Assembly (NCBI GenBank): GCA_965203355.1
Contig: OZ241889.1
Span: 928,001 to 992,000 of the forward strand
From: Candidatus Latescibacterota bacterium
GTDB taxonomy: Bacteria; Latescibacterota; UBA2968; UBA8231
Direction: 5' to 3'
Length of the DNA stretch: 64,000 nucleotides
In this document: piece by piece, positions 21,759 to 42,012 of the stretch
Layout: every line of letters starts with the position of its first letter
Numbering within the stretch: position 1 is the stretch's first letter
Position numbers and translations under genes: made by a program
Notes under the pieces: model-generated
Seen by the model: the letters and a program-made list of their open reading frames with translations, nothing else
What the model was told of the DNA's origin: nothing
Databases searched by the model: none

Positions 21759-24700
21759 TTAGGCTTTTTGTGAAGCGTTGGTATTCAGTCGGACGCGAGT
21801 GCGCCAGATCGCACACAGTGGCACTACTAGTATTAGCAAGATGGACGAGGACACTAGGCCGCCTGATGTCCCGAGTGCTAGGGTGTACCACAAGTTCGTT
21901 CTGTCGCCTTGAAGCAATAAAGGAAGGAAGCCGGCGATGGTCGTAAGGGTGGTGATGAAAATGGGGCGTAGGCGCTGGAAGGCCGCTTTGGCAACCGCCT
22001 CCTTGGGATCGGCTGGCCGCTGTTGCAAGGCGTTGGAGATGGTGTACACGAGCAGGATAGAATTGTTGACGGCAATGCCCATCAGCAGCAACAAGGCCGC
22101 ATAGCCGCCTTGGTTAAAAGGGGCGTCGAAAAGGAAGAGCGCGGCACCCATTCCTATGAGTGCGAGGGGCAGGGCAATGAGCACCAATAGCGGCTGAGTC
22201 CAAGACTCAAAGAGCGCGGCCGCGATCATCCAGACCAAGAGAACGGACAAGAGCACGATGCCCCCCAACTCCCATTGCTCCTTTTTGTCCATCTCGTATA
22301 TCATGGGATTGGAAAGGGTATAACCGTATGGCAGGGACGTGTGGTCGACAATGTCTTGGAGGATGCTGTTGGAATAATCGAAGCTGCCCAAAACCATGAA
22401 ACCAACGGTGCGGATGTAGCGTTGATCTTTGCGTGTTATGCTAGGTGGCACGGTTCGCTTTTCAATGTGGGTGACGTGCCCGATGCGCGCCGGGTGTGCG
22501 TCCAACTCCACTTGGCTTAAGCGGCGGGTGGTCATGCGGCTGGCACCGGTATCGGCGACGCTTACAGCGTATTGTTGCCCGTCCATATAGACTTGTGCGA
22601 AGGTACCGCCAGTGGCGAGCCGATCTTGAATATCGTGGACAATGTCGGCGTGATCGAGGCCGCGCGGTGCGGTTTTGGCATGGTCAAACTGGACCACTAC
22701 TTCGCCCTGGGGTGGACTGGTAGTAAAGTCGACGTGAATGTCCTTAATCCGCCGCGAACGACGCTGCTTTTGCTTTAGTCGATCGGCGATGTCTTCGGCA
22801 ATGTTGCCCACTTGCCCAAAGTTGAACCCGTGAATACTAAGCCGGTTGGAGACGCCGCGGCCCCCGTACAGAGGCTTGCCCGTGATACTTTCCAGTCCCT
22901 TGCCATATATCGACATTCCCACGCCGCCGAGGTTGCCCTCGTAGGCCCCTAGACGCTCGTAGAGGACGTAGGGTATATCCGAGGTGAGGTACTCTTCCTT
23001 GAGCAGCACCTGAATGAGCCCGAACCGGCCCGCAGTTTGGGTGATGACACCCTCGATATACGGCGCAAAGTTGAACAATTGTTTTTCGACATCCCGCAAA
23101 ACTTTGTCTATCTGGCTTATGTGGGAGTTGTGGGGTATTCGGAGATCGACAATCAGCGAAAAGCCTTCTGAGAGTTCTGGGAAAAAGTGTTGGGAAGGTC
23201 GCCGGTCGAGCCGATGCGATAGGTCGCGAAACAAGAGATACGTAGCCCCACCCAACACCTTAAAAAGTGCTGGCTTGATCGCGCTTACTGTGGGATTGCT
23301 CCACGCTTGATTGTAAAGGTCGGCCCCGCTAGCGTAGAGCCGCTCCCGGATCGGGCGATCTGCGCGCGATCGTTTGGACGCGGATGTCGCGTTGCTTGAT
23401 AAACTGGGCGAAGAGGTTGTATCTCGCGTTGCGAGATATGCCTTGTACTGTTGTCGCGTGGTGATTTTGTCGGTGGCTTGCACAACCTGCTCGTCGCCTA
23501 GTTTGTCCGGTAATAGCCACAGCGGTACGCCTACTGCCCACACGACCAAACCGAGGAACATTTTTTTGCGACGGACGCAAAAAAAGAGGACCGCGCGATA
23601 CAAGCGATAGAAGCGGTCTGTGGATGCAGCCGAGGTGGGAACCGACCGTGCGATCGTCCGGTAGAAGAAGGTCGGGATCAGGACGAGAGCGACTAGGAGG
23701 GCAATGGTGAGGGTTAGGCTGAGGGCAACCACAAATGGCTCTAAATAGCCTTGTAATTTCCGAGAGAGGAAAAAGACCGGTAAAAAGGCCCCCAAGGTGG
23801 TCAGATTAGACACGACGATGGGATGCACGCCTTCGCGCAATCCCGCCGCCACGGCCGCCCGCAAATCCCCGCCGGGTCCGCAGGATTGGACTCGGCGGTG
23901 GAGATAGTCGTAGATGACAATGGCGTTATCCACGATCAGACCAAAACCGATGGTGAAACCAGCGAGGGTCGCGAGGTTTAGGTGAATGCCGAGGGCGAAG
24001 AACAACACGACGGCCCCTAGGACGGACAACCAAATGGAACTCAAGATGAGCAAGACCGTTTGAAATCGCTTGAAAACGCCGACCAGCACTAACGCAATAA
24101 ACGCGATGGAAAACGCCGACCAGCGCAGCAGAAAACGGAAGTCTCGCTCTATCTCGGCTCCTTTGTCGTGCAGCGCGACGATCTCAAAGCCCTCGGGCAG
24201 ATGTTGGGAAAGTTCGCCCACCTTCTCCCGAATTTGCTGGGAAGTGTGGATCATATCGCTACCGGGCGTCTTTTCAAATAGGATGGCAATAGCGTTGCGC
24301 CCATTGATCCGATAAAGAGATGTCGGCGGGCCAGGTCGGTAGCGCACGGTCGCTACGTCCTTTAGGTAAATGAAGCGGCCGCTCGCCAGTCGCTTCAGCG
24401 GCACGTCCTCAAGGGTCTCCAAGTCGGCGAGGTTTCCGTAAAGCTGGATGCTGCTGAGTGCACCTTGGCTTTGTGCGGCGCCGAGAAAACGGGTCTGTAT
24501 GCCTTGAGCGGCTATCGCTTGGCTCAGTACGCCTTGGTCGATTTGCCAACGCTGTGCCAAGAGGTGGTTCATTTCGAGGAAGATGTGCTGTTGGGCACCG
24601 CCGAGCACGGTCACTTGCTCGACGCCCGGCACGGATTGCAAGGGCAGGTGTAATCGGTCGTCTACATATTGGCGCAGCACTACGGGGTCTTCGTGCGCAA

Positions 24701-25130
24701 GCAGCATTAAACGGACGAAATTCGCGCTGTTTAGCTGATCGGGATCGGTGTGCTGAACGCGGGGCGGCGAAGCACCGGGCGGCATTTGGCGGCGGAACAA
24801 ATATATCTTTTCGGCTAGCGCTAGCTCGGCTAGTTGTACATTCGCGTCGGGGGCGAGTTCAGCGGTGATCGACGCATGTCCCTTGGCGCTGGTAGAGCTC
24901 AGCCGAACCACGCCCCGCAGACTTTGCACGAGCGACTCCAAGGGAGCCGTGATCTGCGATTCAATGGTGAGGGCCGAAACGCCGGGCCACCCAACGCGCA
25001 CAGTAAGCCGTGGCGCGTCTAATTGGCCGCCGATGTCAATGGGGACCAGCCGAAAACAAACCAAGCCCAATACCAACACCGACACCCCGGCTACGCCCAC
25101 GGCTACGGGTTTGTCCAACAGCTTGTCCAT
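21759..25130 (-). CDS. RND efflux permease subunit (divergent, with insertion)
   Basis: AcrB-like: ITAPLE, GLIVDNAIVI, GIAVNNSILL, RLRPIFITTLTTIAGFLPL. Confidence 0.9.
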   Translation of the reverse strand: MDKLLDKPVAVGVAGVSVLVLGLVCFRLVPIDIGGQLDAPRLTVRVGWPGVSALTIESQITAPLESLVQSLRGVVRLSSTSAKGHASITAELAPDANVQLAELALAEKIYLFRRQMPPGASPPRVQHTDPDQLNSANFVRLMLLAHEDPVVLRQYVDDRLHLPLQSVPGVEQVTVLGGAQQHIFLEMNHLLAQRWQIDQGVLSQAIAAQGIQTRFLGAAQSQGALSSIQLYGNLADLETLEDVPLKRLASGRFIYLKDVATVRYRPGPPTSLYRINGRNAIAILFEKTPGSDMIHTSQQIREKVGELSQHLPEGFEIVALHDKGAEIERDFRFLLRWSAFSIAFIALVLVGVFKRFQTVLLILSSIWLSVLGAVVLFFALGIHLNLATLAGFTIGFGLIVDNAIVIYDYLHRRVQSCGPGGDLRAAVAAGLREGVHPIVVSNLTTLGAFLPVFFLSRKLQGYLEPFVVALSLTLTIALLVALVLIPTFFYRTIARSVPTSAASTDRFYRLYRAVLFFCVRRKKMFLGLVVWAVGVPLWLLPDKLGDEQVVQATDKITTRQQYKAYLATRDTTSSPSLSSNATSASKRSRADRPIRERLYASGADLYNQAWSNPTVSAIKPALFKVLGGATYLLFRDLSHRLDRRPSQHFFPELSEGFSLIVDLRIPHNSHISQIDKVLRDVEKQLFNFAPYIEGVITQTAGRFGLIQVLLKEEYLTSDIPYVLYERLGAYEGNLGGVGMSIYGKGLESITGKPLYGGRGVSNRLSIHGFNFGQVGNIAEDIADRLKQKQRRSRRIKDIHVDFTTSPPQGEVVVQFDHAKTAPRGLDHADIVHDIQDRLATGGTFAQVYMDGQQYAVSVADTGASRMTTRRLSQVELDAHPARIGHVTHIEKRTVPPSITRKDQRYIRTVGFMVLGSFDYSNSILQDIVDHTSLPYGYTLSNPMIYEMDKKEQWELGGIVLLSVLLVWMIAAALFESWTQPLLVLIALPLALIGMGAALFLFDAPFNQGGYAALLLLMGIAVNNSILLVYTISNALQQRPADPKEAVAKAAFQRLRPIFITTLTTIAGFLPLLLQGDRTNLWYTLALGTSGGLVSSSILLILVVPLCAIWRTRVRLNTNASQKA

Positions 25131-25131
25131 G

Positions 25132-28100
25132 TCATTCTTTTGCCCGCGCAACAACCGAGTAGAGGATGGGTACGGCGATCAGAATCAACAGGGTTGATAG
25201 AGAGATGCCGCCAACAACCGCCCAAGCCAAGGGACGGCGCAACTCGGCACCGCTGCCGCTAGATAAGGCCATGGGCAACAGGCCGCAGACCGTGGTCAGG
25301 GTCGTCATACATATCGGGCGGAATCGCTTTTGTCCGGCTTCCACGATGGCTTGACCGAGGTCGCCGCTGGCTTGGTAGTGCCGATGGATGAAGTCGGTTT
25401 TAACTATGGAATCGTTCACCACAATCCCCACGAGGACGATACATCCCAAAAGGGACATGATGTTTAGCGTGTTGCCCGTTAGCCACAGGGTGCAGATGAC
25501 GCCTATAGACGCGAAGGGCACGGCCGTGACGATTACAAAAGGAACGGCGAGGGACTCAAACTGGGCGGCGAGAATGAAATAGACCAATACAATGGAGATG
25601 AAGAGAATGAGATACAGGTTTTGATAGTGTCCTTGCAGCTCGGCGTATTGGGTGCCGACCTCGATCCAATACCCGTCGGGGATGGTTAGCTGAGGTAGGA
25701 ATTCGTCTAGCCGGGCCTTGGCTTGGTCAAAGTCGAGCCCCTGTAAAGCGGCCGTGACGGCGACGGTACGCACTTGGTTTTCGCGGTGGATCGCTTCGTA
25801 GCCCACACTCGGTTTGAGGCGGATTAACTCGGAGAGTGGGATGGCGACGAGACGGCCTTGCGTTTTGACGGGGTACTGCATGTTGAGGACGCGCCACAAG
25901 TCGAGTTCATCGCGGTGTTCGGCTAACACTTTGATGTCTATACGGTCGGCAAAATCGACGAACTGGGTGGGCGTACTGCCTTGTAGCTGGCGGTTGATAA
26001 AGTCGGCGAGTTCGGCGAGGCGGATGCCGTACTGTAGGGCCGCTTCTCGCTGGACCTCGATGTTGAACACCTGTTTGCTGGCCTGCAAGTTGACGCGGGT
26101 GTTGGCAAAGCCCGCGTCCTGCTGCATAAAACCTGTGATCTGCCGACTCAAGTCAGCGAGAACGGTTAGTTGCGGCCCGATAACTTTCAGGTCGAATTGG
26201 GTCTGGTGCTGCTGAAAAAGCTGTTCAAAGGCCGATTCCGGGGGCGACAGGGAGAGGGTCAGGCGGTTGAATTCTCCAAAGGCCGCTTTGATCCGCTCGG
26301 CGATGTCCGCGCTTTCGCTGCCCTCGGCGACTTCAATGTCTAGCACCGCTTTATTCAATCCGGGCCGGTACTGCCGGTCGAGTATCTCGCGGGTGATGCC
26401 GATGGACGAGAGCACGGATGCGACGCCGTCCTCGCGCAGCAGGCGGCGTTCTAGCTTGGTTATTTCCACCGCCGTGGTCGGCAGATTGGTTCCCGGCGGC
26501 AGTTCGGCGCGGAGGACCAAATGCTTTCTATCGACGGTGGGTATGAGCTCGCGCTCTAAGTCGGTGGCTAGATAGGTACTCAGCGCCAGCAGGACGAACA
26601 GGGCCCCGGCGACCTTCCAGCGGTGGCGCAGGGCGCGGACGAGGACGTACTCGTACAGCAAGAAAAACTTGTTGAAGAGGTGTTGAAAGAGGTCGATGGT
26701 GAGGAGGAAAGGGGTGGCTGCTAGGCGCCCGATGCGGTAGAGCCGCCCCGATTCGTTGGGTGCGTTCCAAGACCGGGCAGAGAGCATGGGAAGTAGCACG
26801 ATGGACACGATCAAAGAGGCTGCCAGAGCGAGGGAAATCGTGACCGCCTGCTCGTAAAAGAGGGCCCCGGCGATCCCCTCGACATATACTAAGGGCATGA
26901 AAACCGACATGGTGGTAAGGGTCGAGGCCGTGATGGCCAAGCCCACCTCGCGCGTGCCGCGGACCGCTGCTTCGCCCGGCTCGTGCGACATTTCGCGGTA
27001 GCGATAAATGTTTTCCAGCACGACGATTGAGTTATCAACTAAGATGCCGATGCCCAAAGCAAGGCCCCCCAACGACACAATGTTAAAGTGGATGTCGAGG
27101 AAGTACATGCAGATAAAGGTGGTGATAATGGAAATAGGTATGGACAGCCCCACGATGAGCGGATTCTTGAGATCGCGGAGGAAGTAAATGAGGATGACAA
27201 AGGCAAAGAGGCCGCCCAAGTACAGGGACTGCAGGACGTTGTGTATAGATTCGCTGATGAACTCGGCTTGATCGAAGACCGGCACGACGGCGAAGTTCGC
27301 GTATTCTTGCGAAAAGCGGTAGAGGCTGTCGTACACTTTTTCGGAGGCTTCCACGGTATTGGCGCCGGCCTCCTTGAAAACATACAGAGTGATGACCTCG
27401 TGTCCGTTCAAGCGGGTGTAGCCGGTGCGTTCTGCGTAGCCTTCTTTGATGCGGGCCACGTCCTGTAAGCGGATTAGTTTGGGCGTTAGTTGTACGGGGA
27501 TTTGGCGGATTTGTTGTATGTCGGTGAACTCGGCTTGGATGCGCAGGGGTAACTGGGAAAAACCGTCGCGGATCGAGCCACCGGAGTGGGTTATGTTGAA
27601 CTGCTTGAGGCTGGTTTCCACCTCGGCAAAGCCGATGTTGTAGCGCAGGCTTTTCTCGGCGTCGAGATGGATCTGGATTTCGCGGTCTAGTCCGCCCGCG
27701 ACCTGCACGTAGGCGACACCGTCGATCTGCTCCAGTCGGCGTTTAACGATAGCCTGCGCCATTTCCTTCAGTTCCATGAGGGCTGCTTGGTGATCCCGGG
27801 TGGAGCGGGGCTGTTCGACCCGATCGCCGGTGATCACGAGCGTCATAATGGGGGCGGCCGAAGGATCGAAGCGCAAAATGGTCGGCCGGTCGGCCGTTTG
27901 CGGCAGGTGCCCTTGGTCGAGGCTGCTGCGCGCCTTGATGAAGTTGAGGTCCATGTCGCTGCCCCAGTTGAACTCGACCTCTACAAAAGAGATGCCGTCT
28001 TGCGAGATGGACTTGAGCCGCTGGACGCCGCTTAGGGCACTGAGCGAGGCTTCAATGGGGCGGGTGACATGTTCTTCCACATCGCGGGCATTTAGGCTAG

Positions 28101-28254
28101 GTGCGTCCGTGCGGACAACGAGCCGAGGAATGTCGATATCGGGAAGAAAATCTACGCTTAGCCGGAAAAGGGAGTACAAACCCAAGAGGAGTGCGGCGAG
28201 AAAGCAAACGGTAGTGGCGACGGGCCGATAGACGGCAAAGCGTACGACATTCAC
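25132..28254 (-). CDS. RND efflux permease subunit
   Basis: RPVAT, VTRPIE, GILVDNSIVVLENI, RFRPICMTTLTTVCGLLPMAL. Confidence 0.95.
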   Translation of the reverse strand: MNVVRFAVYRPVATTVCFLAALLLGLYSLFRLSVDFLPDIDIPRLVVRTDAPSLNARDVEEHVTRPIEASLSALSGVQRLKSISQDGISFVEVEFNWGSDMDLNFIKARSSLDQGHLPQTADRPTILRFDPSAAPIMTLVITGDRVEQPRSTRDHQAALMELKEMAQAIVKRRLEQIDGVAYVQVAGGLDREIQIHLDAEKSLRYNIGFAEVETSLKQFNITHSGGSIRDGFSQLPLRIQAEFTDIQQIRQIPVQLTPKLIRLQDVARIKEGYAERTGYTRLNGHEVITLYVFKEAGANTVEASEKVYDSLYRFSQEYANFAVVPVFDQAEFISESIHNVLQSLYLGGLFAFVILIYFLRDLKNPLIVGLSIPISIITTFICMYFLDIHFNIVSLGGLALGIGILVDNSIVVLENIYRYREMSHEPGEAAVRGTREVGLAITASTLTTMSVFMPLVYVEGIAGALFYEQAVTISLALAASLIVSIVLLPMLSARSWNAPNESGRLYRIGRLAATPFLLTIDLFQHLFNKFFLLYEYVLVRALRHRWKVAGALFVLLALSTYLATDLERELIPTVDRKHLVLRAELPPGTNLPTTAVEITKLERRLLREDGVASVLSSIGITREILDRQYRPGLNKAVLDIEVAEGSESADIAERIKAAFGEFNRLTLSLSPPESAFEQLFQQHQTQFDLKVIGPQLTVLADLSRQITGFMQQDAGFANTRVNLQASKQVFNIEVQREAALQYGIRLAELADFINRQLQGSTPTQFVDFADRIDIKVLAEHRDELDLWRVLNMQYPVKTQGRLVAIPLSELIRLKPSVGYEAIHRENQVRTVAVTAALQGLDFDQAKARLDEFLPQLTIPDGYWIEVGTQYAELQGHYQNLYLILFISIVLVYFILAAQFESLAVPFVIVTAVPFASIGVICTLWLTGNTLNIMSLLGCIVLVGIVVNDSIVKTDFIHRHYQASGDLGQAIVEAGQKRFRPICMTTLTTVCGLLPMALSSGSGAELRRPLAWAVVGGISLSTLLILIAVPILYSVVARAKE

Positions 28255-29484: not shown

Positions 29485-30495
29485 TTACGATCTGCTCAAG
29501 GTTTGAGAGTGGGTGGCTAGGGCTTCTAGGGCATTCCGTTCTTGAACGGCGATAGCTTGAATTCGCGCCTGGATGCGCGGTATCAGCCTTGGTGTATACT
29601 TGGTTGCGCCTTTGAAGCACAGGTTTTTGGCGACAAACCAACTCTGAGAAATCGACTCGAATTCTCGGCCGAGAGTGCTTAGGCCGTCGAGGCCGCAGAG
29701 CCGACTGGCATAGTTGAGGAAAGTGCCATGTCCCTCTCTGTTTAGGGCGACATCGAGGAACAATTCAGTGCATTGGTTCAGGCGCGTTTTGATAGCTTGC
29801 CTTTCGCATTCCGCCCATGTTCCTACATCCTCGGCGAGTTGCTCAATCCCGACTACGCCTTGGACGCGCTCGGCTTGTGAATTGGTTGCAGACATACTCG
29901 CGAAATTGCGTTGCAAAATGGCGGCCACATGGCGCGAATGTACGCTAGGCGGCTCGTCCGGCATGTCTAGCAAACACCAGTTAAAATAGGGCCTGTTCCC
30001 GCCAGAAACAGCCCGCGTATCCCAACAGGCAAGGAAGAGGTCAAGTGGGATATCTCGCGCCGAAGGCGTCCATGGCGAAGGATCGATCAAGTGGACGGTG
30101 CTCGCCTTATCGTCGTACCTGGCGACGATAATCTGGTGTATTGAGTGTCGCTGGCGCGGAAAGAGTCCGGCTCCAGCTAGATGGAAGACATCTATATTGA
30201 TAGCTACGGGCGTACCTGCATCCAATCGTTTTTTGACTTCGTTTAACGCCGACCTGCCATCATCAGAAGTATAGCTCAATGCCTCAATGCCGAACGGCTG
30301 GAGCATGGCAAAGAGGGAAGCCGGACGACTCTTGATGCTGAACGATTCGCCTCTAGTGTAAAAAAAGTCCCAGTTGTAAAAAACGGGCAGCGACGGTTCC
30401 CATTGGTAGTAGCGCAGCAAGCTGTCTAATACGACATGGAGGCAGTTGTAGTGCCGATTGGTGCAGAAGGGAATACCACTAATGCGCTTTTTCAT
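29485..30495 (-). CDS. BtrH-like protein (papain/C39-like fold), putative acyltransferase
   Basis: 'NCL' Cys, 'GTPVAINIDVFHL', 'HSIHQIIVARYD', 'HLIDP' triad pattern; helical C-domain; ATGA-coupled. Confidence 0.7.
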   Translation of the reverse strand: MKKRISGIPFCTNRHYNCLHVVLDSLLRYYQWEPSLPVFYNWDFFYTRGESFSIKSRPASLFAMLQPFGIEALSYTSDDGRSALNEVKKRLDAGTPVAINIDVFHLAGAGLFPRQRHSIHQIIVARYDDKASTVHLIDPSPWTPSARDIPLDLFLACWDTRAVSGGNRPYFNWCLLDMPDEPPSVHSRHVAAILQRNFASMSATNSQAERVQGVVGIEQLAEDVGTWAECERQAIKTRLNQCTELFLDVALNREGHGTFLNYASRLCGLDGLSTLGREFESISQSWFVAKNLCFKGATKYTPRLIPRIQARIQAIAVQERNALEALATHSQTLSRS

Positions 30496-31124: not shown

Positions 31125-31145
31125 ATCTGTTCCCACCTGTGTTAC

Positions 31146-35561: not shown

Positions 35562-36250
35562 ATATCGGTCAAAATGTGGTTGCCGTTTATGATTTCTAGT
35601 AGAGACACGCCCTCCAGTTTGCTCAGCGGCGAGTCAGTGAAGCTAGCGGTTTTAACGTTGCGTGCTGGTAGGTGGGTAGAGACGAGTTTCCAGAAGAAGA
35701 GTTTGGTGAATTGTTCTCTGCCTGCTAATGGGTAGTGGTATTGGATAATGGTTTGGCGTTCGTCGATGAGAAAGATCGCCGGCGTCTGCTCAAAGAAATC
35801 TGCATACTTTTTTTGATCGTTCACTCGCATAGTTCCCAAGTGGTATTTGAGCTTGAATGCTCGTGCAAATTGAGCGGCAGCCGATGGCATAGAGGACAGG
35901 GCGTATATGGGTAACTGGTCGGGGTCTTCTATATGGTCATACACATGTTGTAGGGTCTCTAACACCAGCTCTAAGCATGGCTGACAGGAGGTGGGATCGA
36001 AGAGTAATACTAAGCCACCTTGAGTTTTGGCGAAGTCAGTGTGAGCGGTCTCGCCATCGACTTGGAAGGAAATCACGGGGAAAGACTGACCGATCCAGCG
36101 GTCGGATTTGAAGATGTTGATTACATAATCGCGGTAGTTTTGCACATCCACGACATAGGTCTTACTGAACCAAGCTACAACGACGGTCAAAGCGACGAGT
36201 TGTAAGAGGTTCGTAGCAGCCAATAGCTTTATTAAGGTCCTTTGTCTCAT
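35558..36250 (-). CDS. membrane-anchored thioredoxin-fold protein (CxxC)
   Basis: N-terminal TM, 'LLFDPTSCQPCL', 'QTPAIFLID' cis-Pro-type motif. Confidence 0.7.
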   Translation of the reverse strand: MRQRTLIKLLAATNLLQLVALTVVVAWFSKTYVVDVQNYRDYVINIFKSDRWIGQSFPVISFQVDGETAHTDFAKTQGGLVLLFDPTSCQPCLELVLETLQHVYDHIEDPDQLPIYALSSMPSAAAQFARAFKLKYHLGTMRVNDQKKYADFFEQTPAIFLIDERQTIIQYHYPLAGREQFTKLFFWKLVSTHLPARNVKTASFTDSPLSKLEGVSLLEIINGNHILTDI

Positions 36251-36314: not shown

Positions 36315-37529
36315 CTAATGAGGTTGAAAGACAAGTTCGTGGATCTCCACGGTGCCATTGGAGTCCTCTTCTCTTCCCGGTAGAGGCGATTGATAGGAGT
36401 ATAGACAACCGTCCCAATGCGTAAGGTCGTTTCCAATAAAAGATTGCATAGCCTCTTCAAAAGCATAGGCTTTGATCCGGTTTGGTGTCTTTAGGTCATA
36501 GACGATTCCCTCCCATTTAATCGCGCCTCCGGCTAGAAAGTCAGAGATAGAGGAGGGATGCATGTAGGCAACAAGAATGTACTGGTCCTGCACGAGCACT
36601 ATAGATTGCACTTCACTCATTTTACGGTCCAATTGGCTTATTTCCTCGGTGGTTTTATCCTCAAAGCTGTAGTAGCGCTCCGGCAAGGGACGATACTTCT
36701 CTAGTTGATAGCCGAACTGACGTATCAGCCGACCTGTGTCCGGATCGATTGCTGTGACTTTGTAGTCATTTCTTTTTATATAGTACAACTGATGTCGAGT
36801 CGGACTATAGGCTAAAGAACCGCTGGCCATGAAAGATGGTTGGCCAGTGAACAATGGAATGCGATAAATAGGTTCGTATTTTGCCGAGGTTGCCGGTTCG
36901 AACCGCTGCAATTCTACGATATGGCCACTATCGCTAGTTGAACGGGTCACTCTCGTCAAGTACACTGCGCCGTCTCGTCCAGTGACAATCCGAGCCGCCG
37001 ACGACGTACTAAAACGGGGAGACCGGTCTAAGAACTGCCCCTGCCGATCATAGCGGTGTAAGTATCCTGCCGATCTATCGAGAATGTAAAGATGGCCTTG
37101 GGGGGTTATGGCCATATTGTTAGGGGTACCATATTCTCCCGGTCCCATTCCTCGCTTTCCAATGGATCGGATATACTGGCCGTCCGAGATGCTGAATTCA
37201 AAGGCTTGGTCAACGATAAAGTCCGAGAGTAACAGAGTGCCCTCTGGGGAGAATCCCATCCAGTGCACACCGCTGATGGCGGGGGTATCCTCGTCATAAG
37301 CCAATTCGACTTTCCCTTTCAAGACCAGGTCGACCTGGCCGACATACTCGACCGGCACTTGGGGGATGGTCGACTCGTCAGATGCTCCTGAGCTATCATC
37401 TGCGGACCATGCGACACTTTCCTTGATGTTGTCCCATAGCCCGGCGTCGGCTGATTGAACCGGGAAGGCGAGGACGCTGGCGACGAACAGGAGGCGGCTA
37501 TTGAGCAGGATGGAGTGTGCGGTTTTCAT
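36315..37529 (-). CDS. secreted 6-bladed beta-propeller (NHL-like), copy A
   Basis: Signal peptide ending ADA; 'IGKRGMGPGEY..P..MAI...G.LYILD' blade motif; AAGGAG RBS. Confidence 0.85.
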   Translation of the reverse strand: MKTAHSILLNSRLLFVASVLAFPVQSADAGLWDNIKESVAWSADDSSGASDESTIPQVPVEYVGQVDLVLKGKVELAYDEDTPAISGVHWMGFSPEGTLLLSDFIVDQAFEFSISDGQYIRSIGKRGMGPGEYGTPNNMAITPQGHLYILDRSAGYLHRYDRQGQFLDRSPRFSTSSAARIVTGRDGAVYLTRVTRSTSDSGHIVELQRFEPATSAKYEPIYRIPLFTGQPSFMASGSLAYSPTRHQLYYIKRNDYKVTAIDPDTGRLIRQFGYQLEKYRPLPERYYSFEDKTTEEISQLDRKMSEVQSIVLVQDQYILVAYMHPSSISDFLAGGAIKWEGIVYDLKTPNRIKAYAFEEAMQSFIGNDLTHWDGCLYSYQSPLPGREEDSNGTVEIHELVFQPH

Positions 37530-37620: not shown

Positions 37621-37656
37621 AGTACTCCGACCCCGGTTAGTTGGGGCCGGAGTACT
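37621..37656 (-). promoter_or_regulatory. stem-loop 3' of precursor A
   Basis: mRNA AGUACUCCGGCCCC-8 nt loop-GGGGUCGGAGUACU; no U tract. Confidence 0.75.
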
Positions 37657-37688: not shown

Positions 37689-37895
37689 TTACTTCACGAA
37701 ACAGACCTTAGTGTCGCCTTCGCCGCAGTCGTTTCCTTCTGCGTAATGGCATCCGTAATACTTGGCAAGGCAGGGGTCGCCACCGCAGGTGGTATTTTCC
37801 ACGCGGTACGGTGCCACGTCCCATTCGCCTTCCGTCACGTAGGCTTGGATGAGGAACCTACGCCTCACTGGGGTTTTCTTGCTGAGATTTGTCAT
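37689..37895 (-). CDS. Cys-rich precursor peptide A (68 aa)
   Basis: AAGGAG RBS; leader MTNLSKKTPVRRRFLIQAY; core with 5 Cys; paralog of 39360..39569. Confidence 0.85.
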   Translation of the reverse strand: MTNLSKKTPVRRRFLIQAYVTEGEWDVAPYRVENTTCGGDPCLAKYYGCHYAEGNDCGEGDTKVCFVK

Positions 37896-38007: not shown

Positions 38008-39264
38008 TTAATGAAGTTGAAAGACGGGTTCGTAGATCACCACGGTGCCATTGGAGTCCTTTTCCCGCCCCGGTAGCGGTGATTGATAGGAGTATAAACG
38101 ACCATTCCAATGCGTAAGTTCGTTTCCAATGAAACGATGAAAACGAACTATGCTGCTATCCGTAGGGTCAGGATATGATTGAATAGCCTCTTCAAAAGCA
38201 TAGGCTTTGATCTGGTTTGGTGTCTTTAGGTCATAGACGATTCCTTCCCATTTGAGTGCGTTATTGGCTAAATCGTCGAAGACGGAGGGATGTAGGTAGG
38301 TAACGAAAATGTACTGGTCCTGCACGAGCACCATAGATAGCACAGAACTCATTTCACGGTCCAATTCGCTTATTTCCTCAGTGGTTTTAACCTCAAAGTT
38401 GTAGTAGCGCTCTGGTAAGGGACGATACTTCTCTAGTTGATAGCCGAACTGATGTATCAGGCGACCTGTCTCTGGGTCGATTACTGTGACTTTGTAATCA
38501 TTTGTTCCCATGTAATACAACTGATGTCGCGTCGGGCTGTAGGCTAAACGGGTGTAACCGGACATTTTTTGGGAGATGAAAGACGGTTGGTTAGTGGACA
38601 ATGGAGTGCGATAGATGGGTTCGTATTTTGCCGAGGTTGCCGGTTCGAGCCGCTGCAATTCTATGATATAACCACTAGGTGTCCTAACTGATCTCGCTAA
38701 GTACACTGCGCCGTCTCGTCCGGTGACAATCCGAGCCCCTTTAGAAAAGTGAGGAGACCGGTCTAAGAACTGCCCCTGCCGGTCATAGCGGTGTAAGTAT
38801 CCTAACCCTTTATCGAGAATATAAAGATAGCCTTGGGGGTCTATGGCCATATTGGTAGGGAAACCATATTCTCCCGGTCCCGGTCCGTACTTTCCAATGG
38901 AGCGGATGTACTGGCCGTCCGCGATGCTGAATTCAAAGGCTTGGCGACCGACAGCATCCGAGAGTAGCAGAGTGCCTTCTGGGGAGAATCCCATCCAACC
39001 CACATTGCCGATGCCGGGGGTATCCTCGTCATAAGCTAGCTCGACTTTCCCTTTCAAGACCAGGTCGACTTGGCCGACATACTCGACCGGCACTTGGGGG
39101 ATGGTCGGCTCGTCAGATGCTCCTGAGCTATCATCTGCGGACCATGTGACACTTTCCTTGATGTTGTCCCATAGCCCGGCGTCGGCGGGTTGAACCGGGA
39201 AGGCGAGGACGCTGGCGACGAACAGGAGGCGGCTATTGAGCAGGATGGAGTGTGCGGTTTTCAT
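38008..39264 (-). CDS. secreted 6-bladed beta-propeller (NHL-like), copy B
   Basis: Close paralog of 36315..37529; 'IGKYGPGPGEY'. Confidence 0.85.
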   Translation of the reverse strand: MKTAHSILLNSRLLFVASVLAFPVQPADAGLWDNIKESVTWSADDSSGASDEPTIPQVPVEYVGQVDLVLKGKVELAYDEDTPGIGNVGWMGFSPEGTLLLSDAVGRQAFEFSIADGQYIRSIGKYGPGPGEYGFPTNMAIDPQGYLYILDKGLGYLHRYDRQGQFLDRSPHFSKGARIVTGRDGAVYLARSVRTPSGYIIELQRLEPATSAKYEPIYRTPLSTNQPSFISQKMSGYTRLAYSPTRHQLYYMGTNDYKVTVIDPETGRLIHQFGYQLEKYRPLPERYYNFEVKTTEEISELDREMSSVLSMVLVQDQYIFVTYLHPSVFDDLANNALKWEGIVYDLKTPNQIKAYAFEEAIQSYPDPTDSSIVRFHRFIGNELTHWNGRLYSYQSPLPGREKDSNGTVVIYEPVFQLH

Positions 39265-39291: not shown

Positions 39292-39327
39292 AGTGCTCCG
39301 ACCCCGGTTGGTTGGGGCCGGAGCACT
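39292..39327 (-). promoter_or_regulatory. stem-loop 3' of precursor B
   Basis: Same hairpin as 37621..37656 with a compensatory A-U to G-C change. Confidence 0.75.
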
Positions 39328-39359
39328 TAGGACCAGGGTATGGGTTCTGGCGTAGGGAA

Positions 39360-39569
39360 TTACTTCGTGAAGTGGACCTTAATATCTCCTTCGCTGCACT
39401 CACTTTTCTCTGGGTCCCTATGGCATCCGTAGTACTTGGCAAGGCAGGGCTCGCCATCGCAGATAGCACGTGTCACGAGGAACGGATTCACGTCCCACTC
39501 GCCTTCCATCGCGTAGGCTTGGATGAAAAGCCTGCGCCTCACTGGGGTTTTCTTGCTGAGCGTTTTCAT
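39360..39569 (-). CDS. Cys-rich precursor peptide B (69 aa)
   Basis: AAGGAG RBS; leader MKTLSKKTPVRRRLFIQAY; core with 4 Cys, CxxxxCLAKYYGC. Confidence 0.85.
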   Translation of the reverse strand: MKTLSKKTPVRRRLFIQAYAMEGEWDVNPFLVTRAICDGEPCLAKYYGCHRDPEKSECSEGDIKVHFTK

Positions 39570-39679: not shown

Positions 39680-39800
39680 CACGTTTTGTCTCCCGCGCGA
39701 ATCTCGTTCCACAACCCAGCGTTGGCTGGCACAGCCGTGCTGCCGAGGCAAGGAAGCGGGCGGCGAGTACCATGTGAATGTTTGAGAATGTGGTTTTCAT
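39680..39800 (-). pseudogene. frameshifted 5' remnant of a further secreted (propeller-like) gene
   Basis: MKTTFSNIHMVLAAR, then in another frame ...PANAGLWNEIR, matching the propeller N-terminus MKTAHS...ADAGLWDNIK. Confidence 0.6.
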
Positions 39801-40110
39801 CAGGCTGTGCTCCTTTTGTTATTAATAAAAGTAGCGATTGTCGTGGCACTTCGGTATCGGGTGATCACCTGATTTTTGACTAATTCTTATCGGGTGATCA
39901 CCTGATTTTTTGAAAAAACGCCTGATGTGATCTTGTCTGGCGGCGAGTAACACGTGGATGTTTGAGAATATGGTTTTCATTAGACTGTGCTCCTTTTGTT
40001 ACTAATAAAAGTAGCGATTGTCGTGGTGCTTCGGTATCGGGTGATCACCTGATTTTTGACTAATTCTTATCGGGTGATCACCTGATTTTTTGAAAAAAAT
40101 GCCTGATATG
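39771..40110. repeat. 180-bp-period tandem duplication of promoter, RBS and first codons
   Basis: 39771..39930 nearly identical to 39951..40110. Confidence 0.9.
39856..40086. promoter_or_regulatory. four 18-bp palindromic boxes ATCGGGTGATCACCTGAT
   Basis: At 39856, 39889, 40036, 40069; pairs 33 bp apart; upstream of the peptide operon and beside the response regulator gene. Confidence 0.75.
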
Positions 40111-40288: not shown

Positions 40289-40942
40289 TTAGCGAGGCTG
40301 GTCCTCTTCGTCCATTAGTCCCTCTCTGATCGCGTACGCTGTCAGTTTGGCCACGCTGTGCAGGTCGAGCTTATTCATTATGTGCTGGCGGTGGGTGCCG
40401 ATGGTCTTTTTGCTCAGATAGAGTTCTTCGGCTATTTGCGCCGTTGTTTTTCCTTGGGCGACGCATCGCAGCACCATGTGCTCACGCGACGTCAGGGTAG
40501 AAAGTGGTTTGCTGGAGGCATCAGAATGACGCGCCTTGCTGGTGTTGATGGGATTAGTCAGTTGCGAACTCACGTACTGGCGACCAGCTTCCACCTCCCT
40601 GAGTGCTTTCACTAACTCGTTGATGAAGTTCGTTTTCAGCAGATACGCCCAGCCTCCCGCTTCGAACAGGCCATCCACAAATCGCTTATCTGCGTGTTCC
40701 GACAGCGCGACGAACTTCACCTGCGGATGCGTCGTCCGTATCTGGCGTGTTACCTCGAGGCCGCTCAGGTCGGGTAGCCCCATATCCACGATCACAAGGT
40801 CGGGGTGGTAGGAGCGGATCAAGTCAATAGCCGTGCGACCGTCGGATGCCTCGCCGACGACTTCAATATCGCTTTCTTGTTCGAGCCGTGTGTGCAGGGC
40901 TTGGCGCACCATAGTGTGGTCTTCTACCAGAAAAATCTTCAT
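40289..40942 (-). CDS. NarL/LuxR family response regulator
   Basis: VEDH, IVDMGLP phospho-Asp, LTSRE...G.TT.QIAEEL.LS.KTI.THR..IMNKL. Confidence 0.95.
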   Translation of the reverse strand: MKIFLVEDHTMVRQALHTRLEQESDIEVVGEASDGRTAIDLIRSYHPDLVIVDMGLPDLSGLEVTRQIRTTHPQVKFVALSEHADKRFVDGLFEAGGWAYLLKTNFINELVKALREVEAGRQYVSSQLTNPINTSKARHSDASSKPLSTLTSREHMVLRCVAQGKTTAQIAEELYLSKKTIGTHRQHIMNKLDLHSVAKLTAYAIREGLMDEEDQPR

Positions 40943-42012
40943 GGGGAATGGCCCTCCTCTTCAGCTAAAGAACGCGGAAGCACTAGTAGGCAACGCGTAC
41001 CTTTACCGGGCGTTGATTGGATGGTCAAATAGCCACCGATATGGAGCAGATGCTCTTGAATGCTGAACAGACCGAAGTGGCTGGCTCGGTCCATCTGCTC
41101 TAGACGCACTGTATCAAAGCCCTTACCCTCGTCTTCTATCACCACCTGCAACTGGGCTACATCTCGCCGCAAGGAGACGGTGGCTTGGTCTGTGTTGGCG
41201 TGCCGTGAGACATTGATCAGCAACTCGCGAATGGACCTGTACACTAAGCCGCGTATGTCGTGGTTGTGTATCTCCCACTTGTCCTCGGCTTCCACGCGCA
41301 CGGTCAATCCATACTGGGAATGGAGGCGGTCGCCGAGGGCCTCTAAGCCTGGTACGAACCCTATGCCGTAGAGCACGGGTGAACTGCTGTCGGATGTCAT
41401 GGATCGGATGTGATGAGCCATTTCGTCCATGTTCTTCTCCAATGTATCGATCAAGGCTTCTCGTTCGGGGTCGTCGGAATGCCGCAGTGAATTGATCTCA
41501 ACCTTCGACAGCACCAATAGCTGCCCGATGGAATCGTGCAGATCGGCCCCAAGGCGCACCCGCTCGCGCTCTCTGTCAATTAAGAGTCTGGTCGCCAGTG
41601 CCTGCAACTTCTGGATGTGTCTTTCCATGCGCTTGTGCTTGCTGATTTTGCGGATGCTACCTTGATAACCTATGAGGGTGCCGTTTGCGGCTCGCCGAAC
41701 CGAGACCGTTAGGAACGCATCGAATTGGTGCCCGTTACCCGTTGTAAAAGCCGCTGTAAAGTCGCACACAACCTCTGCTTGCTCAATCTGTTCCTGAAAC
41801 CGCTTGTAATCATCTAAACGGGTGTAGAGGCGGCGGATGTTGGAGCCGATCAGGTCGGCGCGTTCGTGGGCAAATAGGGTACTGGCGGCAGGATTGGCAT
41901 CGACGATGGTCCCATCTCGCGCAGCGATGAAGAAGGCATCTGGCGACGCTTCAAACAGGTCGCGATAGAGTTTTGGGTCTCGCCTCAACTTTCTTGGCTC
42001 AGGCTTGCACAT
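40939..42012 (-). CDS. cytoplasmic PAS sensor histidine kinase (HisKA_3)
   Basis: PAS domain, ERVRLGADLHDSIGQ, ELLINVSRHA, EDEGKGF, FGLFSI, PGKGT; no TM. Confidence 0.9.
   Translation of the reverse strand: MCKPEPRKLRRDPKLYRDLFEASPDAFFIAARDGTIVDANPAASTLFAHERADLIGSNIRRLYTRLDDYKRFQEQIEQAEVVCDFTAAFTTGNGHQFDAFLTVSVRRAANGTLIGYQGSIRKISKHKRMERHIQKLQALATRLLIDRERERVRLGADLHDSIGQLLVLSKVEINSLRHSDDPEREALIDTLEKNMDEMAHHIRSMTSDSSSPVLYGIGFVPGLEALGDRLHSQYGLTVRVEAEDKWEIHNHDIRGLVYRSIRELLINVSRHANTDQATVSLRRDVAQLQVVIEDEGKGFDTVRLEQMDRASHFGLFSIQEHLLHIGGYLTIQSTPGKGTRCLLVLPRSLAEEEGHSP

What the first reader, a model, noticed from the sequence alone, without database searches (positions are those of the whole stretch)
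21759..42012. Candidate undescribed RiPP-like peptide system: Cys-rich precursors, S8-DUF1611, ACP, BtrH-like protein and cognate beta-propellers, with no radical SAM enzyme
Seen: a co-oriented, tightly packed cluster with several ATGA overlaps. Order: kinase, regulator, [precursor + propeller] x2, CxxC redoxin, ABC exporter, rhodanese, S8-DUF1611 fusion, ACP, unknown protein, BtrH-like protein, MFP, RND, RND. Known (from recall): clostridial Cys-rich peptide loci combine a CLI_3235-type precursor (TIGR04065), a TIGR04066 protein, an ACP-related protein (TIGR04069) and the radical SAM maturase CcpM (TIGR04068). Inference: this is a diderm relative of that system that lacks CcpM and any LanM/YcaO enzyme. 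It may instead cleave, acylate, disulfide-bond and export the peptide across two membranes.
Basis: partly seen in the sequence, partly recalled or inferred. Interest (0 to 1): 0.95.

Follow-up and report, generated by a model that had tools for sequence, protein, structure and literature searches.

The report
Leader-peptide maturation and export island
This is a 20-kb gene island that probably trims, chemically tailors and exports two small cysteine-containing peptides, each paired with its own periplasmic propeller protein. It belongs to a large family of such systems that appears never to have been studied experimentally.

Summary
The only radical SAM gene in the 64-kb window is MoaA.

- **Core of the family.** The S8-DUF1611 fusion followed by an ACP recurs in many phyla. 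A radical SAM gene accompanies it in only 6 of 26 related loci examined.
- **Unknown protein.** It belongs to the AziU2 family (profile E 8e-43). This domain is fused to BtrH-like domains in 24 of 150 relatives. BtrH-type enzymes are published carrier-protein-dependent papain-like transacylases.
- **Small ORFs.** They are under purifying selection. They carry an N-terminal leader of the kind seen beside S8-DUF1611 genes elsewhere. The statistical link for the window's own peptides is weak in a leave-out test.
- **Propellers.** Each precursor sits beside an NHL-type periplasmic propeller. A complex prediction supports binding (0.75; best control 0.02). The two propeller copies differ mostly at the predicted interface.

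Best reading: a RiPP-like system for cleavage, tailoring and two-membrane export, with cognate propeller partners. It is related to the untested TIGR04066 system but meets no curated cut-off of that system. The chemistry is unknown. I found no description in print.

The parts
40939..42012 (-). Soluble PAS + HisKA_3 + HATPase histidine kinase (ATG at 42012; a longer TTG frame runs to 42156)
   Evidence: Pfam PAS 7.3e-14, HisKA_3 8.5e-07, HATPase_c 1.4e-10. ATGA overlap with the regulator.
40289..40942 (-). NarL/LuxR-type response regulator
   Evidence: Response_reg 3.4e-25, GerE 3.5e-18.
39759..40098 (.). Duplicated 160-180 nt promoter unit with four copies of an 18-nt palindrome (39856-39873, 39889-39906, 40036-40053, 40069-40086); candidate regulator operator
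   Evidence: the repeat finder families D4 and I1-I6. The operator role is inferred.
39360..39569 (-). Precursor peptide A, 69 aa: N-terminal leader (about residues 1-26) plus a core with 4 Cys
   Evidence: ORF with an AAGGAG-type ribosome-binding site. dN/dS 0.40 against the L001 orthologue. No Pfam or NCBIfam family.
39292..39327 (-). 14-bp GC-rich hairpin after precursor A, without a U tract
   Evidence: RNA fold -35.6 kcal/mol, z -6.1, 0 of 200 shuffles as stable.
38008..39264 (-). Propeller A: secreted six-bladed NHL-type beta-propeller (DUF5128)
   Evidence: DUF5128 1.9e-11. Profile hits to NHL domains, E 6e-24. AF2 model pLDDT 82.8 and Foldseek NHL hits. Hydrophobic N-terminus read by eye as a signal peptide. 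Predicted binding to the core of precursor A: 0.75 against a best control of 0.02.
37689..37895 (-). Precursor peptide B, 68 aa, 5 Cys
   Evidence: 65% identical to A. The leader is nearly identical and the core diverged.
37621..37656 (-). 14-bp GC-rich hairpin after precursor B
   Evidence: RNA fold -37.6 kcal/mol, z -5.0.
36315..37529 (-). Propeller B, paralogue of A
   Evidence: 78% identical to A. DUF5128 2.3e-10.
35558..36250 (-). Membrane-anchored thioredoxin-like protein with a CQPC motif
   Evidence: No Pfam or NCBIfam hit. ESM Atlas look-alikes named thioredoxin-domain proteins, 0.94. N-terminal hydrophobic helix. Conserved in L001-L003, L085, L088, L091 and L094.
33828..35561 (-). 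ABC exporter half-transporter without a peptidase domain
   Evidence: ABC_membrane 3.3e-42, ABC_tran 4.1e-37. MsbA/HlyB-like, below all curated cut-offs.
33316..33816 (-). Single-domain rhodanese with an N-terminal hydrophobic helix
   Evidence: Rhodanese 1.7e-18. N-terminus.
31403..33319 (-). Cytoplasmic subtilase fused to a DUF1611 (TIGR04066-like) P-loop protein
   Evidence: Peptidase_S8 4e-27, DUF1611 7.2e-12, DUF1611_N 2.8e-06. QhpE 4.6e-43 and TIGR04066 1.5e-32, both below cut-off. Asp/His/Ser triad and the GTSSQQGK P-loop invariant in 20 homologues. No signal peptide or pro-domain.
31146..31418 (-). Acyl carrier protein
   Evidence: PP-binding 2.5e-12, above cut-off. Attachment Ser invariant in 13 of 13 aligned homologues.
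30492..31136 (-).
   Evidence: Family profile against AziU2/Azi28, E 8e-43. AF2 pLDDT 91; Foldseek to 7wuw/8gs1, E 1e-14, TM 0.75-0.82. Fused to a BtrH-like domain in 24 of 150 relatives.
29485..30495 (-). BtrH-like papain-fold transacylase (BtrH_N + DUF4872)
   Evidence: BtrH_N 2.5e-11 and DUF4872 1.6e-08, both above cut-off. N-terminal Cys candidates and an invariant His120. ATGA overlap with the AziU2-like gene.
28267..29433 (-). Membrane fusion protein
   Evidence: HlyD_D23 1.8e-29.
25132..28254 (-). RND pump 1
   Evidence: ACR_tran 5e-225.
21759..25130 (-). RND pump 2, with a large insert
   Evidence: ACR_tran 2e-122 in two stretches. Conserved after RND 1 in L001, L002, L091 and L092.

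Best explanation
This is a leader-guided (RiPP-like) system for peptide maturation and export across two membranes.

Proposed steps (inferred unless marked otherwise):
1. The response regulator switches on the duplicated promoter.
2. The two precursors are made in excess over the downstream genes (hairpins follow each precursor gene).
3. In the cytoplasm the S8-DUF1611 enzyme recognises the N-terminal leader and cuts it off, as QhpE does for QhpC.
4. The enzyme's P-loop half works with the holo-ACP, the AziU2-like protein and the BtrH-like transacylase. Together they carry out a carrier-protein-dependent tailoring step on the core, most likely transfer of an ACP-bound acyl or aminoacyl group to an amine.
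5. The ABC exporter moves the peptide to the periplasm.
6. There the membrane-anchored thioredoxin-like protein and the rhodanese handle its cysteines.
7. Each peptide is caught by its own NHL propeller, which acts as an immunity or escort partner.
8. The MFP-RND-RND pump expels the peptide across the outer membrane.

What is shown: gene content, family assignments, recurrence of the core, coding selection on the peptides, and a supported (not proven) peptide-propeller binding model. What is inferred: every chemical step, the protein topologies, and the biological role.
For: **Recurrence.** The S8+DUF1611 fusion has 565 relatives at E <= 0.001 among 8000 scored candidates. All 120 listed carry both Pfam families. 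Its protease triad and P-loop are invariant in 20 homologues. An ACP gene lies next to it in most full-length loci, and the ACP's Ser is invariant in 13 of 13. Single Latescibacterota genomes hold several copies of the fusion, from 1 to about 8.

**Same architecture elsewhere.** Propeller, precursor, redoxin-like, ABC, rhodanese, S8-DUF1611, ACP, AziU2-like, BtrH-like, MFP and two RND genes recur in L001, L091 and L092. L002 is a variant. The peptide cores differ between these loci.

**Leader peptides.** Small ORFs with ribosome-binding sites and a shared N-terminal motif lie in 17 of 30 S8-DUF1611 loci. In 64 S8-only loci, 0 of 18,342 reading-frame segments reach E < 1.

**Coding evidence.** dN/dS is 0.40 between precursor A and its L001 orthologue. 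Between A and B it is 0.45 in the leader and 0.90 in the core.

**Tailoring module.** BtrH_N and DUF4872 score above their cut-offs. BtrH, AsbE and CtaG are published Cys-His-Asp transacylases that take donors from carrier proteins (PMC12865890, passages read). The AziU2-like domain shares a chain with a BtrH-like domain in 24 of 150 relatives.

**Protease analogy.** The S8 half is nearest to QhpE. QhpE removes the QhpC leader in the cytoplasm before export through an ABC transporter (PMC7876137, passages read).

**Propeller binding.** Score 0.75 (runs 0.80, 0.75, 0.65); best of 3 controls 0.02. That mark was reached by 58 of 80 solved complexes and 2 of 110 mismatched pairs. Contacts agree at 88% or more, and partner pLDDT is 71 or more. 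Identity between the two propellers is 17 of 45 at the predicted interface against 260 of 321 elsewhere (Fisher p 6e-09). dN/dS is 0.95 at the interface against 0.37 elsewhere.

**Precursor-propeller adjacency with unrelated cores.** This recurs in L086, L088, L091, L002 and L003.
Against: - No modification is demonstrated, and no enzyme in the cluster has a known peptide substrate.
- With the window's and L001's peptides left out of the leader model, the window's peptides score only E 0.63 and 1.1, and L001's 0.034. They rank beside chance hits. Their link to the general leader therefore rests on a motif seen by eye and on gene context.
- The precursor family itself is tiny. The 5.8-billion-protein search found only the window's own two peptides. 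One more copy lies in L001/G001. A metagenome scan found none.
- No enzyme that loads the ACP is identified. The role of DUF1611 is a guess.
- A second BtrH-like subfamily in related loci lacks the N-terminal Cys.
- The AziU2-like protein occurs in only 4 of the loci examined.
- Interface residues lie on propeller loops, which vary in the whole family anyway (mean conservation 0.36 against 0.65).
- The complex prediction used my own alignments (3 rows for the peptide). It is a model's confidence, not a measurement.
- No outer-membrane channel gene lies in the cluster.
Confidence: 0.6

Rival explanations
1. The peptide is a protein subunit, as in quinohemoprotein amine dehydrogenase. It would be processed in the cytoplasm, exported by the ABC transporter, and become a permanent small subunit of its periplasmic propeller, perhaps bearing a cofactor. 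It would not be a released product.
For: The S8 half is nearest to QhpE (E 4.6e-43). The radical SAM enzyme of sister locus L002 also matches QhpD (1.6e-67). QhpC is cut by QhpE and exported by an ABC transporter before joining the other QHNDH subunits in the periplasm (PMC7876137); that one of those subunits is a beta-propeller is my recall. Extensive binding to the propeller is predicted. The motif PCLxKYYGCH and an odd number (3) of invariant Cys are conserved. Related loci hold MauE plus a redoxin, and a Kelch/galactose-oxidase-like protein.
Against: The peptide core and the propeller's predicted binding face diverge fast between paralogues (dN/dS 0.90 and 0.95). Cores are unrelated between loci. 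That fits a specificity race better than a conserved catalytic site. The propeller resembles ligand-binding NHL domains, and I saw no obvious active site or redox partner. The MFP-RND-RND genes suggest onward export.
Confidence: 0.15
2. The peptide is a signal, with the propeller as a periplasmic receptor or sink. It would be exported as a cell-cell signal and would autoinduce the cluster through the kinase and regulator.
For: A two-component system sits directly upstream. Four palindromic sites lie in the duplicated promoter in front of the first precursor. The pairs are cognate and hypervariable.
Against: The kinase has PAS domains and no evident membrane or periplasmic sensor. Other subtypes of the family use sigma-54 or AraC regulators instead. 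They also carry CPBP-type proteases, glycosyltransferases and GNATs, a mix typical of bacteriocin-like clusters.
Confidence: 0.1
3. The ACP, DUF1611, AziU2-like and BtrH-like genes build a thiotemplated small molecule. The small ORFs and propellers would be unrelated neighbours.
For: All characterised relatives act in small-molecule pathways: BtrH, AsbE and CtaG and AziU2/U3. No peptide substrate is shown.
Against: The DUF1611 protein is fused to a leader-peptidase-like subtilase in hundreds of genomes. Leader-type ORFs accompany it in 17 of 30 loci. The cluster has no adenylation, ketosynthase, ATP-grasp or sulfotransferase gene.
Confidence: 0.1
4. The small ORFs are not genes. They would be chance frames in a duplicated intergenic region.
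For: They match no family, and the large protein database holds no relatives outside this genome.
Against: The frame is kept in three copies. dN/dS is 0.40 at dS of about 1. Ribosome-binding sites are conserved and the Cys pattern is conserved. A confident predicted complex forms with the neighbouring protein.
Confidence: 0.03

Closest known systems
Clostridial CLI_3235 / TIGR04065-04069 'Cys-rich peptide' maturation system (predicted by comparative genomics, NCBIfam). The related SacP23 cluster of Paenibacillus is annotated in PMC10731318.
   Same: It has a DUF1611-type TIGR04066 protein, a small ACP, a subtilase, an ABC exporter and small Cys-containing precursors. Firmicute loci L015 and L016 have the same S8-DUF1611 fusion and a similar leader. 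The SacP23 table lists a TIGR04066 protein, a TIGR04069 protein, a TIGR04068 radical SAM enzyme and a subtilin-like protease (passages read).
   Different: No curated cut-off is met. There is no CcpM radical SAM enzyme. The protease is fused to DUF1611. The window adds BtrH-like and AziU2-like proteins, rhodanese, a thioredoxin-like protein, cognate propellers and an RND pump, and the host is diderm. As far as the passages I read show, the clostridial system's chemistry is itself untested.
QhpC maturation in quinohemoprotein amine dehydrogenase (QhpD, QhpE, QhpF); PMC7876137
   Same: A cytoplasmic subtilase without a pro-domain removes a leader from a small Cys-containing peptide. An ABC exporter then takes the peptide to the periplasm, where it joins the other QHNDH subunits (that one of them is a beta-propeller is my recall). 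The S8 half scores 147 bits on the QhpE model.
   Different: The score is below the QhpE cut-off of 165. The window has no QhpD, QhpG or haem subunit. The propeller is a 6-bladed NHL type. The peptides are hypervariable.
BtrH / AsbE / CtaG papain-like, carrier-protein-dependent transacylases; PMC12865890
   Same: The same Pfam architecture, BtrH_N + DUF4872, scores above cut-off, and an ACP gene lies two genes upstream. An N-terminal Cys and an invariant His are present.
   Different: The known members work in butirosin, petrobactin and closthioamide pathways. None is known to act on a ribosomal peptide. Here the enzyme is translationally coupled to an AziU2-family protein.
AziU3/AziU2 (Vzb10/11) aziridine-forming complex of azinomycin biosynthesis (PDB 7wuw, 8gs1). 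The function comes from the entry titles and from reference 27 as cited in PMC12865890.
   Same: The 214-aa protein is a full-length sequence and fold homologue of AziU2.
   Different: There is a single copy, with no AziU3-like partner. The cluster has no sulfotransferase or amino-group carrier protein. The family is large (473 representatives) and also occurs in Rib-domain and fucosidase proteins. Aziridine chemistry therefore cannot be assumed.
ACP-dependent N-acylation of RiPPs (goadvionin-type lipopeptides; recalled from memory, no call)
   Same: An acyl group on a carrier protein is moved onto a leaderless ribosomal peptide.
   Different: The recalled system uses a GNAT and a polyketide synthase. 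Here there is a papain-like enzyme and no synthase.

Membership tests
TIGR04066 peptide maturation system protein | Score at or above the curated cut-off (200 bits) | tested here: not met
   113 bits, E 1.5e-32, residues 283-646. It is a homologue, not an equivalog.
CLI_3235 system (TIGR04065 precursor) | The precursor matches TIGR04065 | tested here: not met
   No NCBIfam hit at E <= 0.01 for either peptide.
CLI_3235 system (TIGR04068 CcpM) | A SPASM radical SAM maturase in the cluster | tested here: not met
   The only radical SAM gene in the 64-kb window is MoaA at 11521-12579.
CLI_3235 system (TIGR04069 ACP-related protein) | The ACP matches TIGR04069 | tested here: not met
   TIGR04069 is not among the 17 NCBIfam hits at E <= 0.01. 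Only generic ACP models hit, all below cut-off.
Pfam Peptidase_S8 | Gathering score reached and an Asp-His-Ser triad | tested here: met
   95.7 bits against 21.8. D19, H60 and S204 are invariant in 20 sequences.
Pfam DUF1611 / DUF1611_N | Gathering scores reached and a P-loop | tested here: met
   45.6 against 25 and 28.0 against 22.6. The GTSSQQGK motif is invariant. Weak match to PDB 2g0t.
QhpE subtilisin-like protease (NF049966) | Score at or above 165 bits, in a qhp operon context | tested here: not met
   147.1 bits. No qhp genes in the window.
Acyl carrier protein (PP-binding) | Gathering score reached and a conserved attachment Ser | tested here: met
   47.3 bits against 20.8. The Ser is invariant in 13 of 13.
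BtrH-like transacylase (BtrH_N + DUF4872) | Both domains above gathering score | tested here: met
   44.4 against 29.7 and 34.9 against 28.
BtrH-like transacylase (BtrH_N + DUF4872) | Cys-His-Asp catalytic triad | tested here: inconclusive
   Cys11 or Cys18 is present in the window's subfamily. His120, D92 and D102 are invariant in 14 sequences. No alignment to a solved member was obtained.
AziU2/AziU3 aziridine synthase | Sequence and fold homology to AziU2 | tested here: met
   Profile E 8e-43. Foldseek E 1e-14, TM 0.75-0.82.
AziU2/AziU3 aziridine synthase | Heteromeric partner and a sulfated carrier-bound substrate pathway | tested here: not met
   One copy only. None of the cluster's 16 genes matched a sulfotransferase or an amino-group carrier protein.
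RiPP system (general definition) | Gene-encoded precursor with a conserved leader and a variable core, beside a protease and an exporter | tested here: inconclusive
   The leader motif occurs in 17 of 30 loci, and 0 of 18,342 control segments reach E < 1. In the leave-out test the window's own peptides score only E 0.63 and 1.1.
RiPP system (general definition) | Post-translational modification of the core | not testable with these tools
   This needs mass spectrometry of the product.
DUF5128 / NHL six-bladed propeller | Gathering score reached and a propeller fold | tested here: met
   44.2 against 22.9. NHL profile hits at E 6e-24. AF2 and Foldseek.

The most novel reading that the evidence does not exclude
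S8-DUF1611/ACP loci may form a large RiPP superclass, spread across phyla and uncharacterised. In it, ribosomal peptides with a common leader would be tailored by carrier-protein (thiotemplate) chemistry. Here that chemistry would come from a BtrH/CtaG-type papain-like ligase working with an AziU2-type partner, an enzyme pairing not known to act on peptides. In the propeller-bearing subtype, every peptide would co-evolve with a private periplasmic NHL-propeller partner. That would make a diversifying peptide/binder pair comparable to bacteriocin and immunity protein.
Probability: 0.4. Interest if true: 0.85.

Novelty: new variant of a known kind. Interest (0 to 1): 0.72.

Why it matters
If the reading holds, four things follow.

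1. **A function for DUF1611/TIGR04066.** The family would gain a testable role. It has been flagged as a 'peptide maturation system protein' by comparative genomics, and I found no biochemistry for it.
2. **A bridge between two fields.** Ribosomal peptides would be linked to carrier-protein-dependent papain-like ligases, whose mechanism was published in 2026, and to the AziU2 fold.
3. **A mining handle.** The S8-DUF1611 fusion plus the leader motif could be used to find many hypervariable peptides in poorly studied phyla. Relatives found here are labelled Latescibacterota, KSB1, Gemmatimonadota, Spirochaetales, Ignavibacteriota-type (Rosettibacter), Myxococcota (Minicystis) and Firmicutes.
4. 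**A use for the propellers.** The propeller pairs would offer a natural set of evolvable peptide-binding scaffolds.

If it fails, the locus is still a well-delimited island of unknown chemistry.

Tried and rejected
- **Own genome.** None is held, so the second S8-DUF1611 paralogue on the same 4.17-Mb contig (P0025) could not be inspected.
- **Precursor relatives.** The large protein search found only the window's two peptides. The metagenome scan found none: 118 pattern matches, 0 confirmed. A search of five related genomes found only the L001 copy.
- **Cys-count filter.** A simple filter for small ORFs gave mostly noise.
- **Solved structures.** The BtrH-like protein matched nothing meaningful (best E 1.2, DNA polymerase IV). 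The DUF1611 half gave only a weak hit to 2g0t (E 0.095).
- **Language-model search.** For the 214-aa protein the ESM Atlas returned only unnamed clusters.
- **Expression.** No RNA holder was listed for the precursor region.
- **Promoter scan.** It was no better than shuffles (3 found, 3.4 expected).
- **Literature.**
  - The search on the TIGR numbers and CLI_3235 found 5 papers; one, on SacP23, was read in passages, and the other four were seen only as listings.
  - DUF1611 found 2 irrelevant papers.
  - BtrH with RiPP found 2 irrelevant papers.
  - DgcN found none.
  - CcpM found 1 paper, as a name in a network figure.
  - NVEALA, DUF5128 and BF3164 found 1 irrelevant paper.
  - DarH found xanthomonadin work that I did not read.
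  - 'Peptide maturation system' and PF07755 found nothing new.
  - Supplements were closed. The supplementary table of CtaG-like enzymes in PMC12865890 may list relatives of this BtrH-like protein, and I could not see it.
- **Recalled ideas left untested.** The DgcN acetyltransferase analogy for DUF1611 is recalled; only a weak partial NCBIfam hit (E 0.0037) bears on it. The pairing of NVEALA peptides with propellers in Bacteroides is also recalled.
- **Aziridine or sulfate chemistry.** I considered and rejected it as the default reading, because the partner and pathway genes are absent.

Full report
**What is in the window**

Sixteen co-oriented genes lie on the minus strand between 21759 and 42012. 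Pfam and NCBIfam give the following, in transcription order:

- a soluble PAS/HisKA_3 histidine kinase;
- a LuxR-type response regulator;
- two units of [68-69 aa ORF + secreted DUF5128 propeller];
- a 230-aa membrane-anchored protein with a CQPC motif and no family hit;
- an ABC exporter with no peptidase domain;
- a rhodanese;
- one chain holding Peptidase_S8 + DUF1611_N + DUF1611;
- a PP-binding ACP;
- a 214-aa protein with no family hit;
- a BtrH_N + DUF4872 protein;
- a membrane fusion protein;
- two RND pumps.

ATGA overlaps join kinase/regulator, rhodanese/S8-DUF1611 and 214-aa/BtrH-like genes. The precursor+propeller unit is a tandem duplication of about 1735 nt. The promoter region in front of it is itself duplicated and holds four copies of an 18-nt palindrome. 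Each precursor gene is followed by a very stable 14-bp hairpin with no U tract (z -6.1 and -5.0).

The only radical SAM gene in the 64 kb is MoaA.

The cluster has a lower G+C content (0.50-0.58) than its flanks (0.60-0.66). It sits, together with an AbiE toxin-antitoxin pair, between accessory genes and structural genes of a xanthine-dehydrogenase/CO-dehydrogenase-type molybdoenzyme. This looks like an inserted island.

**The conserved core**

The S8-DUF1611 fusion has 565 relatives at E <= 0.001 among the 8000 candidates scored. All 120 listed carry both domains. In 20 aligned homologues the subtilase Asp/His/Ser triad and the P-loop GTSSQQGK are invariant. The protein has no signal peptide or pro-domain. 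Its S8 half is nearest to QhpE (147 bits, cut-off 165). Its other half is nearest to TIGR04066 (113 bits, cut-off 200).

A scan of one genome per species returned 80 loci.

- L001-L010, L012 and L014-L016 encode the fusion at full or near-full length.
- L011 and L013 hold only part of the gene.
- L017-L080 match the S8 part only.

L001 (labelled Latescibacterota, 84% identical) has the same gene order as the window. I annotated 13 of these loci with ORF clustering. I also annotated 13 further paralogous loci from four Latescibacterota genomes with local profiles.

Results over those 26 loci:

- An ACP gene is adjacent to the fusion in most full-length loci. Its attachment Ser is invariant in 13 of 13 aligned sequences.
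- A BtrH-like gene is present in 6 of the first 13 loci (L001, L002, L004, L006, L015, plus a partial copy in L008) and in 8 of the second 13.
- A radical SAM gene is present in 6 of the first 13 loci. Five are of SCIFF/PapB/QhpD type and below all cut-offs; one is of another type. It is present in 0 of the second 13.

Lack of a radical SAM enzyme is therefore the usual state in this family.

The window's full architecture recurs in L001, L091 and L092. L002 is a variant with a radical SAM gene, a sigma-54 activator, and a Kelch protein in place of the 214-aa gene. Other subtypes carry glycosyltransferase, GNAT, CPBP-type protease, Yip1, and MauE plus redoxin genes.

**The 'unknown' protein**

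- It has 473 representatives at E <= 0.001.
- A profile built from 31 of them hits AziU2/Azi28 at E 8e-43 over its full length.
- The AF2 model (pLDDT 91) matches 7wuw and 8gs1 at TM 0.75-0.82.
- Of the 150 listed relatives, 24 also contain a BtrH-like domain in the same chain. That includes 22 of the 42 relatives of 461-640 aa. Pfam confirms BtrH_N in two of them.

This fusion pattern, together with the ATGA coupling in the window, links the AziU2-like protein functionally to the BtrH-like enzyme.

PMC12865890 (passages read) shows that CtaG, BtrH and AsbE are papain-like Cys-His-Asp transacylases. They take their donor from a carrier protein through an acyl-enzyme intermediate.

In the window's BtrH-like subfamily an N-terminal Cys is present, and His120 is invariant. 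A second subfamily in related loci lacks that Cys.

**The peptides**

The two ORFs and their L001 orthologue keep the reading frame. They share a nearly identical first 26 residues, three invariant Cys, and the motif PCLxKYYGCH.

| Comparison | dN/dS |
|---|---|
| Precursor A vs L001 orthologue, whole ORF (dS about 1) | 0.40 |
| A vs B, leader | 0.45 |
| A vs B, core | 0.90 |

Small ORFs with ribosome-binding sites and a common N-terminal pattern lie in 17 of 30 S8-DUF1611 loci. The pattern is Lys/Arg-rich with a Pro, then [IVL]-x-[AL]-Y followed by acidic residues. Firmicute and Rosettibacter loci are among the 17.

- A model built from 17 of these ORFs finds two further copies in L008 (E 3e-07 and 0.01).
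- It finds weak copies in L085 and L088.
- It finds nothing with E < 1 among 18,342 segments of the 64 S8-only loci.

Against this, when the window's and L001's peptides are left out of the model, they score only E 0.63, 1.1 and 0.034. The seeds match by construction. Membership of the window's peptides in the general leader family is therefore plausible but not statistically secure.

**The propellers**

They are NHL-type six-bladed propellers, each with a hydrophobic N-terminus that I read by eye as a signal peptide.

A complex prediction was run of mature propeller A (36-row alignment) with the core of precursor A (3-row alignment).

- Score: 0.75 (runs 0.80, 0.75, 0.65).
- Best of 3 controls: 0.02.
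- That mark was reached by 58 of 80 solved complexes and 2 of 110 mismatched pairs.
- Contacts agree at 88% or more, and partner pLDDT is 71 or more.

This supports binding but does not show it.

| Propeller A vs B | At the predicted interface | Elsewhere |
|---|---|---|
| Identical positions | 17 of 45 | 260 of 321 (Fisher p 6e-09) |
| dN/dS | 0.95 (38 codons) | 0.37 (309 codons) |

Part of this contrast is expected, because the interface lies on loops that vary across the whole family (conservation 0.36 against 0.65).

Precursor and propeller are adjacent, with unrelated cores, in L086 (two pairs), L088, L091, L002 and L003.

**Most likely mechanism**

The steps are set out under Best explanation:

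1. regulated expression;
2. cytoplasmic leader removal by the QhpE-like protease (analogy from PMC7876137);
3. a carrier-protein-dependent tailoring step by the DUF1611, ACP, AziU2-like and BtrH-like proteins;
4. ABC export;
5. periplasmic handling of the cysteines;
6. capture by the cognate propeller;
7. RND efflux.

Only the parts list, the recurrence of the core, the coding evidence and the binding prediction rest on results. The chemistry is inference. The cargo of the ACP and the role of DUF1611 are unknown.

The main rival is a QHNDH-like peptide subunit of the propeller. The fast-evolving core and interface, and the efflux genes, argue against it.

**Comparison with what is known, and novelty**

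The nearest described system is the computationally defined clostridial CLI_3235/TIGR04066 cassette, but none of its curated models is met. The S8 half, the BtrH-like protein and the AziU2-like protein each have characterised relatives in unrelated pathways.

Ten literature searches (listed under Tried and rejected) found no description of S8-DUF1611 loci, of DUF1611 in peptide maturation, or of BtrH-like or AziU2-like proteins acting on ribosomal peptides. Subscription journals and supplements were not visible.

I rate it a new variant of a known kind (a RiPP-type system), of clear interest to natural-product and RiPP specialists.

Noticed in passing
window 12756-16014 and 42056-46983: The island splits what looks like one molybdoenzyme gene set. 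On the left are MoxR-type AAA, CoxE-like VWA and XdhC genes, with MoaA at 11521-12579. On the right are a MobA-like gene and the 2Fe-2S, Mo-binding and FAD subunits of a xanthine/CO-dehydrogenase-type enzyme. The cluster's G+C content is 0.50-0.58 against 0.60-0.66 in the flanks.
   Followed up: partly
window 18735-20173: An AbiEi/AbiEii-type toxin-antitoxin pair lies at the left edge of the low-GC island.
   Followed up: no
window 39591-39980: Two short frames behind the duplicated promoter start like the propeller signal peptide (repeat family D7, 67-74% identical). They look like relics of a propeller gene's 5' end left by the duplication.
   Followed up: partly
window 39620-39641 and 37946-37967: An identical terminator-like hairpin with a T run lies about 50 nt upstream of each precursor start codon. 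It could be a terminator of the preceding unit or an attenuator.
   Followed up: no
window 20409-21332: A 307-aa frame just downstream of the second RND gene contains a hydrophobic signal-peptide-like stretch (about residues 33-53) and has no family hit. It may or may not belong to the cluster, and it is not conserved in L001.
   Followed up: no
window 57754-59842: A patch with G+C 0.43 holds two adjacent DNA methyltransferase genes, one N6/N4 type and one C5 type. No nuclease gene was identified here.
   Followed up: no
window 9427-11502 and 16201-18585: There is a Mur-ligase/RimK ATP-grasp fusion (cyanophycin-synthetase-like by domain content) and a penicillin-amidase-family gene. Both lie outside the island.
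   Followed up: no
G005 (locus L006 genome) and G001, G003, G004: Single Latescibacterota genomes hold up to about 8 S8-DUF1611 paralogues. Some contain in-frame stop codons (1 TAG, 1-2 TGA) and may be pseudogenes.
   Followed up: partly
L008 3415-4412: Three tandem leader-type ORFs have hydrophobic, Cys-ended cores. They form a different precursor family in a locus with no propeller.
   Followed up: no
L082 14222-14662 and 8520-9071: A MauE-family membrane protein and an AhpC/TSA-type redoxin lie in another S8-DUF1611 subtype. From memory, this recalls the MauD/MauE pair needed for the disulfide-rich small subunit of methylamine dehydrogenase.
   Followed up: no
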